This document shows, one piece after another, positions 18,001-21,000 of a stretch of 64,000 nt of DNA. This DNA comes from Pecten maximus. Lineage: Eukaryota. Location: NCBI RefSeq assembly GCF_902652985.1, contig NC_047016.1:51770001-51834000 (forward strand), in the 5' to 3' direction. A program made the position numbers. Each line of letters starts with the position of its first letter. Within the stretch, counting starts at the first letter, position 1.

Positions 18001-21000
18001 AAGATCAGCTGGCATGGTTTACAACTTTACAGGTATATTCAAGTGATATTTAAGCTTAATATGATAATGAATAGATATCTTCATCTGGAATATATTTATG
18101 ACGGAGTATTTTACCGTTTCCACAGCCTTGGGTTTTCTGCTATAAGGTATAGTCTGTTTCATAAAACTTCAGAATAACTAATCTTAATAAGGGCGCCCCC
18201 ACTGTCAATTACCCGCGCCCTTATTAGGTCAAATACGGTATGTATAAATATTTTTAATCAAATTTACGTTTTTGTTTCACAAGTCTGGCTATTCTGATTT
18301 TTTAGACGATCTTGCTATATAGCTACAAGTCAGTTTTAAAGGAAAACTGTCTAACACTAGAACTCTTCAAATTAAAGAAGGGCTAGCACTGATGTTGTCT
18401 TTCCTAATCAAATGCATGTTTGGTTGTGTTTCCATGCTTTAAATGTTTGTAAAACATATTGAGTGGTCCAGCCTATAACATAAGTGGCTACTGGCTGGCA
18501 AACTTTGAAGACATGGCAAGCGCCTGTCCTAAGTTGTTTGTCATGTATTACTCTAACAATACCACCAAACATGGAAAATTTGACATTCTGCACAGTGTAA
18601 ATCTACTTTGGGAAGTTAGAGGTTACATGGAGCCTATCATATGTTTCTAGCCGTGATATCCTCTATAATTGTTGGAGTAACCGTTTCACCTCAATGAGTT
18701 TGAAGGGACATATCTACTTGACTGATGTTTTGACCGTTCAGATTTCTGAGAAATAGTGATTTGACTTCCGAAATGGCAAAAAGTAAAGGGTCAACTGTGT
18801 TTCCCTGAAATAGACCTGTCCCTCTAAGCAGGAGTTATTTTGGAAAGTCTGAACATTCTGATGTTTCACGCCCTTATATATAACCTTTGTGATGTTTTTC
18901 TACATCAAAGTCGCTATCATCATCGCTATCGTCTCCTCCTCCAAAGTCCACCTGTATGAGATGACGCTGCACTGGTTTCACTCTGCGTTTCTTTGGATCT
19001 CTTTGTACTATAGAAAATGTAAAATTGTGGGAAAGATTAAGCATTTAATCTGTAACTGGTACAACAGATAATATTCTTTAATTCAAATAATTATATTTCA
19101 ATAATAATTGGAATAACACATTTGTCCAACTTTAAAATTGTACTGCTGCAACTTTTACTTTTCACATTAATCATTTCAATTTTGTGTTTGAATTGATATA
19201 TTAAAGCGTACGCATGTAACATAAGAGGCTGCTAATTTATTACGTTATAATTCTCTATCGAGATTGTTGCTTACGATAACATTATTTTTTATTAAATTAT
19301 TATAGTAAAACTGGAAAATGGGAATGTTTCAATTTTAGTCATTCAATCATAAAACAAAGATTAATGATGCTGTTTCGTTTGGGAGGATCTGCCTCCTCTT
19401 AATTGAGAGGATGCTTTTGAGCTCTAGCAAGCATACAGAAGTACAGTACAATATAATATTACAGTAGCGTAACTCCATGTTCCCCCAACCTGCACGGATA
19501 CCGTCGTAATGACTGATGTCAGTTCACGATTCGGTTTCCACAGCAAATAATCCGATATCTTACACATCGTTTTATACAAAAATTCCACGCTTGGGTCAAC
19601 CTCTTCTAGTTCTAAGTTGTTTTCTGCCATGTTGAGTGATAGAACTCAGTCTAGAAAACGTGAAAATGAGCCAAGTCAATTGTGCGCGGCGCTTGAAAAT
19701 CGCAGTCTCTACCACGCTTAGTAGTTGTACTCTCAAAACCTTTCTATTACTAAATTGCAAATTATATCATATATATATCTATATATGATACAAAGGCGTT
19801 TTTATTAATCATAATTATATTAAATGTATAGAAAATTTAGCTGATGACGTTTAAACTCGTGTACTATTCACTTTAGATAACATTTACTTTTGTACGGAGA
19901 GTACACGTCGCCATTTTCGTATAACACTGCAACCTCTGGAAATGGTGCACTTAACGAAACTCTTACGCCATGGCGGTCCTACGCCGTATCATACCAACCC
20001 CAGGCTTATGGTTGGGTCTGGAAAAGAGGTGTTAAATACAAAGAGCCATTATAGCAGCGTAAGTATTGTACCCGTAACTAAATCTAAATGTTCCATTTGT
20101 AACCCCGGCTGTTTTGCCAATGTCACACCATTCAGGTCGTGCTGTGATCTGAGAAAAGCAGGGCAATTTTCCTAACAAAATTGCGAAATGTTAGGAAAAG
20201 GATTGCTTGCATTTCAAATGTTAGTCTACTCCATGGGACATCAAGGAAAAAAATATCATAATTAGGTAATCTATAAAATATATATTTGAGATGACCTTCA
20301 ACACCATCTCGTTGACGATGTGTGGAAGTTGGGTATTTTACATGTGTGTGTATGTGTGCATAGGCCTATGGAATGTTGTGTAAGTTGTACGAGTTACCGA
20401 TGATCGAGTCTGTGTGTGAATGACCGAATGTAATCATGAATGGAAGGGATGTATCTGTGTATGGATGATGATTATTAGTAATATTACCTTGTTCTAGCTC
20501 TGTGTTTATAATATGTGTGTATTGCCGTCGCACCTGACACATAGGAACGAGATGGAATTGTTACATGGGGTAGCACAGTGGTATCACACTCGTATTTCAC
20601 CCATGGTAAGACCTCGCACACCACCAGGGACAATAACAGTGATTGATATATTATAATAGTAAGCATAGTCTTTTCATGAACAGCATGTTTTTTTGTTATT
20701 CAAGTTATTCCCCTTTGTTTATTTGGTATTTGATTTTTTGTCCAGAGATCAAAGACACTTGGTAGGGTTTATATTGTTGCGTGAAATGAGTCTAACTAAA
20801 CTCCTGATTACAGCTGGTATTCCCCGAGAAAATTAAACATTGACTTTGTAGTGAAAAGGCGAGAGTTAAAGCATGCCACCTTACCAGTCATATGGTGGTG
20901 CAAATGTTATTTCAATGCAAGATAGTATATAACGCTATATATATGGCATTTGACAGGGGTATATTGTTCTGTCTTGCTGTTTTTCGGAAAGTTTTAAACC

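What the first reader, a model, noticed from the sequence alone, without database searches (positions are those of the whole stretch)
19564..20010. PHF14 and NDUFA4 head-to-head, apparently the same neighbour pair as in human 7p21
Seen: the divergent start codons are separated by 311 bp. From recalled knowledge, human NDUFA4 and PHF14 are adjacent and divergently oriented at 7p21.3. Inference: this is ancient bilaterian microsynteny, here compressed to a shared promoter coupling a complex IV subunit to a chromatin reader.
Basis: partly seen in the sequence, partly recalled or inferred. Interest (0 to 1): 0.65.

Follow-up and report, generated by a model that had tools for sequence, protein, structure and literature searches.

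The report
Scallop PHF14 and NDUFA4-like, head-to-head
Two real scallop genes, a PHF14 chromatin reader and a divergent NDUFA4-family respiratory-chain subunit, start 311 bases apart on opposite strands, the same neighbour pair as in mammals; this is a tidy but fairly ordinary case of conserved gene order.

Summary
A minus-strand ATG at 19630 and a plus-strand ATG at 19942 are separated by exactly 311 bp. [quoted passage not shown]

One correction: the NDUFA4-like first exon most likely ends at 20058 (GTAAGT donor), not 20010.

PHF14 identity is strong. The plus-strand gene belongs to the B12D/NDUFA4 family, and its first intron aligns with human NDUFA4 intron 1. It is divergent, carries extensions at both ends, and evolves fast. 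One-to-one orthology was not tested.

Papers confirm that NDUFA4 and PHF14 are the only two protein-coding genes in a roughly 1-Mb human 7p21.3 interval, and they are listed together in sheep. The divergent orientation in human is recalled only. No intermediate lineage could be examined, apart from a second scallop with both genes on one 609.5-kb scaffold.

The spacer lies in a CpG-undepleted patch and holds the window's only 14-nt-arm palindrome. This fits a compact bidirectional promoter, but no transcript data exist. Functional coupling is unsupported.

The window is not human and holds no N. The joined-model search was left out.

The parts
19564..19630 (-). PHF14-like exon 1. The ATG is at 19630. 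It encodes MAENNLELEEVDPSVEFLYKTM plus the first base of the next codon; the donor is GTAAGA.
   Evidence: P0004 residues 1-22 map at 100%; sequence read. The encoded motif is clear in 13 of 17 named PHF14 proteins aligned and degenerate in 1 more.
18885..19007 (-). PHF14-like exon 2. The acceptor is ttttctatag. It encodes QRDPKKRRVKPVQRHLIQVDFGGGDDSDDDSDFDVEKHHK.
   Evidence: The conserved RDPKKRRVKP...DDSDF block is present in all 17 aligned PHF14 proteins, with small changes.
687..16873 (-). Remaining PHF14-like exons. About 18 further tblastn segments cover P0004 residues 64-800, and they include the PHD1-zinc knuckle-PHD2 cassette at about 12207-16226. The boundaries are approximate. The last ~31 residues of P0004 were not placed at 100%.
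   Evidence: tblastn. The exon at 14181-14351 hits PDB PHF14 chain 7d86_A at E=5.6e-16, against 6.7e-06 for the next protein, Jade-1.
19631..19941 (.). 311-bp spacer between the two start codons. It must hold both 5'UTRs and is presumed to hold the core promoter(s).
   Evidence: GC 0.334, 13 CpG, CpG observed/expected 1.5 against 0.51 for the whole window. It is not repeated elsewhere in the window.
18901..20200 (.). CpG-undepleted patch covering both first exons and the spacer.
   Evidence: Merged 400-bp windows with CpG o/e of at least 1.0. This is one of 10 such regions in the window. The 19501-19900 window reaches 1.46, against a median of 0.43 and a 95th percentile of 1.21.
19762..19793 (.). 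TA-rich palindrome with 14-nt arms, 93% complementary, 4 nt between the arms. It contains two TATATAT strings and sits near the middle of the spacer.
   Evidence: It is the only palindrome of that grade in the 64 kb; 7 of 60 dinucleotide shuffles of the window hold at least one.
19942..20058 (+). NDUFA4-like exon 1, 39 codons, phase 0, donor GTAAGT.
   Evidence: Identity to the other two scallop proteins is 37/39 and 32/39 residues. The last residues align with the N-terminus of solved NDUFA4 chains (via P0122).
21455..21543 (+). NDUFA4-like exon 2 (89 nt): the transmembrane helix and the SPDV motif.
   Evidence: On its own it hits Pfam PF06522 B12D at E=8.1e-05 and 22.4 bits, against a cut-off of 21.5. 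Splice sites.
22415..22475 (+). NDUFA4-like exon 3 (61 nt), with a GC donor (gcaagt).
   Evidence: P0001 residues 70-89 at 100%. No family or structure hit on its own.
23300..23443 (+). NDUFA4-like exon 4, including the TAA stop. It encodes the LFSFSLKYKDL block and a C-terminal extension.
   Evidence: No family or structure hit on its own.

Best explanation
The window is a stretch of a scallop chromosome; its exons match Pecten maximus proteins exactly.

Shown: at 19564-20058 lie the first coding exons of two genes transcribed away from each other. One is a PHF14 orthologue. It runs on the minus strand, from 19630 down to the start of the window. The other is a four-exon gene of the B12D/NDUFA4 family on the plus strand (19942-23443, 136 aa). 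Also shown are the 311-bp spacing and the CpG and palindrome anatomy of the spacer.

Inferred: the pair is most likely the same neighbour pair as NDUFA4-PHF14 in mammals, inherited from the common ancestor of protostomes and deuterostomes. That would make the scallop NDUFA4-like gene the positional counterpart of NDUFA4. Both genes probably start transcription inside one short, CpG-undepleted and presumably unmethylated region of about 1.3 kb. It would act as a compact bidirectional promoter, perhaps organised around the central TA-rich palindrome.

Functional coupling between respiration and chromatin reading is not needed to explain the arrangement, and I do not assume it.
For: Gene identity:
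- P0004 and P0001 map exon by exon at about 100%, and both list one contig of 55,138,983 bp.
- A PHF14 exon finds 186 proteins at E<=0.001 among 190 candidates. The named ones among the 120 listed are largely PHF14.
- The best solved structure for that exon is PHF14, by 10 orders of magnitude.

Family of the plus-strand gene:
- Exon 2 alone passes the Pfam B12D cut-off.
- PF06522 is precomputed for P0001.
- The 84%-identical Argopecten orthologue P0122 hits only NDUFA4 chains in the PDB. All 4 hits at E<=10 are NDUFA4, the best at 5.7e-06, collinear over 73 residues. It also hits B12D at 7.1e-09.

Gene structure: scallop intron 1 lies between residues 39 and 40, which align with residues 14 and 15 of an 81-residue NDUFA4 chain. 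Human intron 1 follows c.42, that is 14 codons (passages of PMC3701321).

Neighbourhood elsewhere:
- Human 7p21.3 holds NDUFA4 and PHF14 as the only two protein-coding genes in a deleted region (PMC4109958 passage).
- A sheep GWAS table lists SNORA62;NDUFA4;PHF14 at one intergenic SNP (PMC12532847 passage).
- The Mizuhopecten NDUFA4-like and PHF14 proteins both list a contig of 609,506 bp.

Promoter reading:
- CpG o/e is 1.5 in the spacer against 0.51 window-wide.
- The palindrome is unique in the window.
- The spacer is not a repeat.
- There is no RNA gene or tRNA in the window.
Against: - Taken exon by exon, only 1 of the 4 NDUFA4-like exons gives any family signal. Exons 1, 3 and 4 gave 0 Pfam families, and exons 2, 3 and 4 gave only chance PDB hits at E>=0.5.
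- The protein is atypical. It has 136 aa against 81. The family's PEPW-like motif (recalled) is replaced by SYPW.
- It evolves fast. Identity is 110/131 (84%) to the Argopecten protein, and the Mizuhopecten protein is 56% identical to the Argopecten query.
- The word-based search reached only three scallop proteins, and the full HMMER scan with exon 2 found only one relative.
- Protostomes are reported to hold both NDUFA4-type and C15orf48-type homologues. The gene could therefore be a paralogue.
- No intermediate lineage was examined.
- The human orientation, and the distance of some 30 kb, are recalled only. If that distance is right, a shared promoter is not what holds the pair together in mammals.
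- CpG-rich patches are not rare here: there are 10 regions with o/e>=1.0 in 64 kb.
- TATA-like strings occur in 41% of 311-bp windows.
- The palindrome criterion was set after the palindrome had been seen.
- No transcript data exist.
Confidence: 0.62

Rival explanations
1. Chance or convergent adjacency. The scallop gene would be a fast-evolving, lineage-specific or C15orf48-type B12D paralogue that happens to sit beside PHF14. The resemblance to the human pair would then be a coincidence, not inherited gene order.
For: The protein is divergent and carries extensions. Only pectinid relatives were reached. A passage of PMC7793259 reports two B12D types in protostomes. NCBI names the protein only 'NDUFA4-like'. 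Part of its sequence (DVML.KK) looks, from recall, as much like C15orf48 as like NDUFA4.
Against: By my own estimate (assumed numbers: about 20,000 genes and at most 5 B12D genes), the chance that one of PHF14's two immediate neighbours is a B12D gene is about 5 in 10,000. The intron 1 position is shared with human NDUFA4, so the gene is not a retrocopy. All 4 PDB hits of the orthologue are NDUFA4, collinear through the QYK-F-S block.
Confidence: 0.15
2. Neighbours, but not one shared promoter. Each gene would have its own core promoter, or an upstream non-coding first exon, so 311 bp is not the distance between transcript starts and there is no co-regulation. The linkage would persist passively because scallop genomes rearrange slowly.
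For: No transcript data of any kind were available. The two first exons sit in a 1.3-kb CpG-undepleted patch that is wide enough for two separate promoters. The motif matches (TATA-like, Inr-like, one GCCATTTT, one TGACGT) are at the level expected in AT-rich DNA. If the human distance recalled is right, the mammalian genes have separate promoters.
Against: The spacer is short, and both annotated coding sequences begin in exons that face each other. The strong conservation of both first-exon peptides argues that these are the true first coding exons. A single central palindrome is the only one in 64 kb.
Confidence: 0.3
3. The pair would be kept together by selection for co-regulation, coupling a complex IV subunit to a chromatin reader, for example under hypoxia.
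For: Indirect only. A passage of PMC9942394 cites PHF14 as a hypoxia-sensitive epigenetic regulator. Passages of PMC7793259 describe hypoxia-linked regulation of NDUFA4 and its paralogues. The pair appears in both scallop and mammals.
Against: Nothing in the sequence speaks for coupling. No paper in the library links the two genes functionally: all 14 papers that hold both names appear in the search listing. I read passages of five of them (PMC13541444, PMC10827653, PMC7612636, PMC12532847, PMC4109958), and these name the genes only as neighbours. No expression data exist for the scallop.
Confidence: 0.08

Closest known systems
Human NDUFA4 (COXFA4) - PHF14 locus at 7p21.3
   Same: The same two gene families are immediate neighbours (PMC4109958 and PMC10827653 passages). 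The first intron of the NDUFA4-family gene sits at the same place.
   Different: The scallop start codons are 311 bp apart, whereas the human genes are recalled to be some 30 kb apart in a gene-poor region. The scallop protein has 136 aa with N- and C-terminal extensions, against 81 aa in human. The head-to-head orientation in human comes from recall only.
Bidirectional (head-to-head) promoter gene pairs of animals
   Same: The genes lie on opposite strands and diverge. The first coding exons are less than 1 kb apart. The region between them is CpG-undepleted.
   Different: The transcript starts are unknown. The region is AT-rich (GC 0.33), unlike mammalian CpG-island bidirectional promoters. 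Co-expression is untested.
Conserved ancient microsyntenic gene pairs of metazoans (catalogues by Irimia and colleagues 2012 and Simakov and colleagues 2013; recalled, not seen)
   Same: An unrelated gene pair is kept adjacent in a mollusc and in mammals.
   Different: Whether this pair is already in those catalogues could not be checked, because they are in supplementary files, which are closed. Main-text searches found no report: 'microsynteny' with NDUFA4 gave 1 unrelated plant paper, 'microsynteny' with PHF14 gave 0, and 'synten' with PHF14 gave 2 unrelated papers.
NDUFA4 / NDUFA4L2 / C15orf48 (MISTR) paralogues of complex IV
   Same: Pfam B12D membership and a single transmembrane helix. 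The alignment to NDUFA4 in solved cytochrome c oxidase structures is collinear.
   Different: The subfamily is undetermined. The scallop protein has a strongly conserved N-terminal extension of about 25 aa, plus a C-terminal tail, that the solved 79-82 aa chains lack.

Membership tests
PHF14 | PHD1-zinc knuckle-PHD2 (PZP) cassette closest to PHF14 rather than to other PZP proteins | tested here: met
   The exon at 14181-14351 hits PHF14 chains 7d86_A and 7d8a_A at 5.6e-16 and 5.7e-16. Jade-1, AF-10 and BRPF1 score 6.7e-06 or worse. Pfam PHD-type domains are precomputed for P0004. On single exons Pfam gave only sub-threshold PHD hits.
PHF14 | Conserved N-terminal block (RDPKKRRVKP ... acidic DDSDF) and full-length collinearity with named PHF14 proteins | tested here: met
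   I aligned the first 110 residues of 17 named PHF14 proteins, picked from the 120 listed. P0004 maps to the window exon by exon for residues 1-800.
NDUFA4 / Pfam B12D (PF06522) | Match to the family profile above the curated cut-off | tested here: met
   Exon 2 alone scores 22.4 bits against a cut-off of 21.5, E=8.1e-05. The orthologue P0122 scores 35.4 bits, E=7.1e-09. PF06522 is precomputed for P0001, P0122 and P0124. Exons 1, 3 and 4 alone gave 0 families.
NDUFA4 / Pfam B12D (PF06522) | Collinear similarity to NDUFA4 as seen in solved cytochrome c oxidase structures | tested here: met
   Tested through the Argopecten orthologue P0122, not the window's joined model. All 4 PDB hits are NDUFA4, with residues 30-102 aligned to 4-76. 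The window's exons 2, 3 and 4 on their own gave no NDUFA4 hit.
NDUFA4 / Pfam B12D (PF06522) | Intron 1 after codon 14, phase 0, as in human NDUFA4 | tested here: met
   The scallop intron lies between residues 39 and 40, phase 0. These residues align with 14 and 15 of the 81-residue chain 9i7u_N. The human c.42+1 donor follows 14 in-frame codons (PMC3701321 passages).
NDUFA4 (one-to-one orthologue, as against C15orf48-type or lineage-specific paralogue) | Placement in the NDUFA4/NDUFA4L2 clade of a family tree, and no better candidate elsewhere in the genome | not testable with these tools
No scallop genome was on hand. PMC7793259 reports two types in protostomes.
NDUFA4 | Small size (about 80 aa) without extensions | tested here: not met
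   The protein has 136 aa. About 25 extra residues lie at the N-terminus and about 30 at the C-terminus, relative to the solved 79-82 aa chains.
Bidirectional promoter pair | Divergent genes with transcript starts less than 1 kb apart | tested here: inconclusive
   Divergent orientation and an ATG-to-ATG distance of 311 bp are shown. The transcript starts are unknown.
Bidirectional promoter pair | Co-expression, or activity of the spacer in both directions | not testable with these tools
   No expression data were available.
Ancient conserved microsynteny | Adjacency of the orthologous pair in distant lineages | tested here: inconclusive
   The pair is adjacent in the window. In Mizuhopecten both genes lie on the same 609,506-bp scaffold. 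Human and sheep adjacency comes from paper passages. No other phylum was examined.
Ancient conserved microsynteny | Same relative orientation in those lineages | not tested
   The human head-to-head orientation is recalled and comes from no call.

The most novel reading that the evidence does not exclude
PHF14 and an NDUFA4-family gene may have been kept head-to-head since the bilaterian ancestor because they share regulatory DNA that ties a hypoxia-sensitive chromatin reader to a swappable complex IV subunit. The scallop would preserve the compact ancestral form: one bidirectional promoter built around a central palindrome. Its NDUFA4-like exon 1 encodes an unusually conserved N-terminal peptide that overlaps this promoter region.
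Probability: 0.08. Interest if true: 0.6.

Novelty: new member of a known kind. Interest (0 to 1): 0.3.

Why it matters
If the pair proves adjacent across phyla, it adds one more anchored example to the several hundred ancient microsyntenic pairs (recalled). It would also give a positional argument for which protostome B12D gene corresponds to vertebrate NDUFA4, a family whose paralogues swap in complex IV under hypoxia and inflammation.

The compact scallop spacer would be a convenient 311-bp test piece for bidirectional promoter function in a mollusc.

As it stands, both genes are already annotated, the human neighbourhood is known, and nothing mechanistically new is shown.

Tried and rejected
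Motif scan. A six-frame scan for recalled NDUFA4 motifs found no NDUFA4 exon. Its single hit, NNHPW at 29251 on the minus strand, is unrelated. The exons were found by reading the sequence.

Pfam on stop-to-stop ORFs. The four plus-strand ORFs in the first scan gave 0 families.

NDUFA4-like model, exon by exon:
- Pfam gave 0 families for exons 1, 3 and 4.
- PDB gave only chance hits: exon 2 an MraY chain at E=2.4, exon 4 PKR at E=0.66, and exon 3 chains named heat-labile enterotoxin B at E>=0.5.
- The full HMMER scan with the 30 residues of exon 2 gave 2 hits. One was the Argopecten orthologue. The other, P0123, is a 1594-aa repetitive protein with 14 matched stretches, which I dropped as a compositional match.

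Joined model.

Out-of-frame ATG at 19970. It reads MAVLRRII..., which looks like the family's MLRQ N-terminus (recalled). It stops at about 20033 and is out of frame with exon 2 at either donor, so I rejected it as coincidence.

I rejected it in favour of 20059.

Promoter motif matches. One GCCATTTT, one TGACGT, and TATA-like and Inr-like strings were found. I do not treat them as evidence, because TATA-like strings lie in 41% of 311-bp windows.

Other scans. Rfam and tRNA scans found nothing. The protein atlas search confirmed only the B12D family: 23 of the 30 hits share the top rows' family set, B12D, with a best score of 0.92.

Literature. PMC2848612 and PMC9942394 held nothing on the gene pair.
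Full report
**What the window is.** The window has about 37% G+C, no N and short exons with GT-AG introns. An exon query returned 'cytochrome c oxidase subunit NDUFA4-like [Pecten maximus]' (P0001, 136 aa). Another returned 'PHD finger protein 14-like [Pecten maximus]' (P0004, 831 aa). Both list a contig of 55,138,983 bp, and both map back to the window exon by exon at about 100%. The window is therefore scallop DNA, not a human contig, and no human sequence was handled.

**Observation.** The minus-strand ATG is at 19630 and the plus-strand ATG at 19942. The 311 bases 19631-19941 lie between them.
- The left end of the finding, 19564, is exactly the last base of PHF14 exon 1. 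That exon is 67 nt, has a GTAAGA donor and ends in phase 1. It joins an exon that starts at 19007 behind a ttttctatag acceptor.
- The right end, 20010, precedes a weak GTTGGG donor.
- Three lines of evidence use the GTAAGT donor at 20059 instead: the NCBI model, the two other scallop proteins, and the alignment to solved NDUFA4 chains.
- Both donors keep phase 0. The longer exon (19942-20058) is better supported, because the extra 16 residues align with the N-terminus of NDUFA4.

**The minus-strand gene is PHF14.**
- The exon at 14181-14351 found 186 proteins at E<=0.001 among 190 candidates. The named ones among the 120 listed are largely PHF14, from molluscs, arthropods, brachiopod, nemertean and others.
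- In the PDB its best hits are PHF14 chains at 5.6e-16. The next proteins (Jade-1, AF-10, BRPF1) score 6.7e-06 or worse.
- Single exons gave only sub-threshold PHD hits in Pfam.
- I aligned the first 110 residues of 17 named PHF14 proteins, picked from the 120 listed. The peptide encoded by exon 1 (…VDPSV.FLYKTML) is clear in 13 and degenerate in 1 (Daphnia). It is divergent in 1 (Dreissena) and absent from the two shorter N-termini (Pinctada, Tachypleus).
- The ATG at 19630 is therefore the genuine, conserved start.

**The plus-strand gene.** I searched the spliced model exon by exon and left the joined step out. The exons are 19942-20058, 21455-21543, 22415-22475 (GC donor) and 23300-23443, with consistent phases.
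- Exon 2 alone passes the curated Pfam cut-off for B12D, the 'NADH-ubiquinone reductase complex 1 MLRQ subunit' family: 22.4 bits against 21.5, E=8.1e-05.
- The other three exons gave 0 families.
- Exons 2, 3 and 4 gave only chance hits in the PDB.
- A full HMMER scan with the 30 residues of exon 2 found one relative, P0122, and one repetitive protein that I dropped.

**The Argopecten relative P0122.**
- It is 'NDUFA4-like [Argopecten irradians]', 132 aa, and 110/131 identical to P0001.
- As a natural full-length relative, it hits only NDUFA4 chains in the PDB. All 4 hits at E<=10 are NDUFA4, the best at 5.7e-06, collinear over residues 30-102 against 4-76.
- It hits B12D at 7.1e-09.

**A third relative, from Mizuhopecten.** P0124 has 142 aa and is 56% identical to P0122. 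It lists a contig of 609,506 bp, the same length as the contig of the Mizuhopecten PHF14. The two genes are therefore linked in that scallop too.

**Gene structure.** In the alignment, scallop residues 39 and 40 (the exon 1/2 junction, phase 0) face residues 14 and 15 of an 81-residue NDUFA4 chain. Passages of PMC3701321 place the human intron 1 donor at c.42+1, after 14 in-frame codons of an 81-aa protein, with primers in exons 1 and 4. The first intron is thus at the same place and phase. This argues against a retrocopy and for the long exon 1.

**How typical is the protein?** It is not typical.
- It has about 25 extra residues at the N-terminus and about 30 at the C-terminus.
- SYPW stands where the family usually has a PEPW-like motif (recalled).
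- It changes fast between scallops.
- The exon 1 peptide is the best-kept part: 37/39 and 32/39 residues identical, against 74/97 and 47/97 for exons 2-4. That could reflect a functional N-terminal peptide, or DNA-level constraint from the promoter region it overlaps.
- Passages of PMC7793259 report NDUFA4-type and C15orf48-type homologues, but no NDUFA4L2-type, in protostomes. The subfamily of this gene is therefore open.
- I could not build a tree.

**The spacer.**
- It has 33% G+C but 13 CpG, giving an observed/expected ratio of 1.5 against 0.51 for the window.
- In 400-bp windows the region 18901-20200 stays at or above 1.0. The peak is 1.46, against a median of 0.43 and a 95th percentile of 1.21. 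Ten such regions exist in the 64 kb.
- In animals with gene-body methylation, such a patch usually marks unmethylated DNA. This is established knowledge, recalled.
- Near the middle lies a TA-rich palindrome, 19762-19793. It is the only one with 14-nt arms, at most 1 mismatch and a loop of at most 6 in the window.
- 7 of 60 dinucleotide shuffles of the whole window hold at least one such palindrome. The criterion was set after I had seen the palindrome, so it is a lead only.
- TATA-like strings are common: 41% of 311-bp windows hold one.
- The spacer is not repeated elsewhere in the window.
- The window holds no Rfam family and no tRNA.

**Other lineages.**
[quoted passage not shown] The authors then sequenced the interval 10165499-11213632.
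- PMC10827653 (passage) calls NDUFA4 the nearby gene of PHF14.
- The review PMC13541444 (passages) places both genes in 7p21.3 microdeletions.
- A GWAS table in PMC7612636 lists 'NDUFA4, PHF14' at one SNP.
- A sheep GWAS table in PMC12532847 lists SNORA62;NDUFA4;PHF14 at one intergenic SNP.
- That the human genes are head-to-head and some 30 kb apart is my recollection and comes from no call.
- No eukaryotic genome collection was available, so amphioxus, annelids, cnidarians and the rest stayed unchecked.

**Chance.** This is my own estimate with assumed numbers, namely about 20,000 genes and at most 5 B12D genes. One of PHF14's two neighbours would be a B12D gene about 5 times in 10,000. Inheritance is therefore much the likelier reading, even though only two distant lineages are in hand.

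**Mechanism and rivals.**
- Best reading (0.62): an inherited neighbour pair. In the scallop both genes start within one short CpG-undepleted region that works as a compact bidirectional promoter.
- Rival: a non-orthologous paralogue sitting beside PHF14 by chance (0.15).
- Rival: separate promoters or upstream non-coding exons, with passive linkage (0.3 for the promoter part).
The only support for this last one is indirect literature on hypoxia.
- If the recalled human distance is right, a shared promoter cannot be what keeps the pair together in mammals.

**Novelty.** Both genes are annotated and the human neighbourhood is known. Main-text searches found no report of this pair as conserved microsynteny:
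- 'microsynteny' with NDUFA4 found 1 unrelated plant paper, and 'microsynteny' with PHF14 found 0.
- 'synten' with PHF14 found 2 unrelated papers.
- NDUFA4 with 'bidirectional promoter' found 4 papers, none concerning this pair as judged from the listing plus passages of one of them.

The published catalogues of ancient microsynteny keep their lists in supplementary files, which were closed, so the pair may already be listed there. I rate it a new member of a known kind, of modest interest.

**Left unchecked.**
- Supplementary tables.
- Any eukaryotic genome beyond this window.
- Transcript, methylation and expression data.
- The closed metagenome and viral collections, which do not bear on this question.

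Noticed in passing
window 1-9303 (PHF14-like gene body): The gene is riddled with minisatellites: 36 bp x30 at 2051-3140, 36 bp x65.7 at 5121-7498, 62 bp x11 at 8366-9042 (the array extends to 9303) and 104 bp x5.8 at 1-598. Several arrays look like amplified copies of the ends of neighbouring coding exons. Examples are partial tblastn hits of P0004 residues 485-502 across 8549-9176, and of residues 783-800 at 669-616, 598-545, 494-441 and 78-25.
   Followed up: partly
window 3369-3674 and 2028-3151: One PHF14-like exon encodes a 12-residue repeat (SPST(S/N)RPSVDKF) from a 36-bp unit. About 30 more copies of the unit lie just downstream in what the NCBI model treats as intron. The true exon extent and the repeat number may differ from the model.
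   Followed up: no
window 1-827: The last ~31 residues of the NCBI PHF14-like model did not map at 100% in the window. The region is a tandem array that repeats the end of a PHD-finger exon. The 3' end of the model may be an artefact, or it may lie beyond the start of the window.
   Followed up: no
window 19942-20058: The N-terminal extension of the NDUFA4-like protein is the most conserved part among three scallops: 37/39 and 32/39 residues identical, against 74/97 and 47/97 for the rest. It is basic and has no counterpart in the solved NDUFA4 chains. Its function is unknown.
   Followed up: partly
window 19762-19793: This is the only palindrome with 14-nt arms in the 64 kb. It is TA-rich and lies in the middle of the spacer.
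   Followed up: partly
window 22476: Intron 3 of the NDUFA4-like gene has a GC donor (gcaagt) instead of GT. The exon junction is confirmed by the database protein.
   Followed up: yes
window 33494-41375, minus strand: Long open frames with C2H2 zinc fingers and acidic, serine-rich stretches, tail-to-tail with the NDUFA4-like gene. They are probably one multi-exon zinc-finger gene. Arrays of 39 bp x20.6 (38185-38971) and 26 bp x20.2 (39153-39678) lie between its exons.
   Followed up: partly
window 48401-50800, 53651-54600, 59151-60500, 62401-64000: Further CpG-undepleted patches (o/e at least 1.0, up to 1.64) that may mark other promoters. The long frames scanned near them (53441-53761, 58125-58640, 61482-61886) gave no Pfam family.
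   Followed up: no
window 19970-20035: An out-of-frame ATG reads MAVLRRII..., which resembles the MLRQ N-terminus of the family (recalled). It stops after 21 codons and cannot join exon 2 in frame. I judge it a coincidence.
   Followed up: yes
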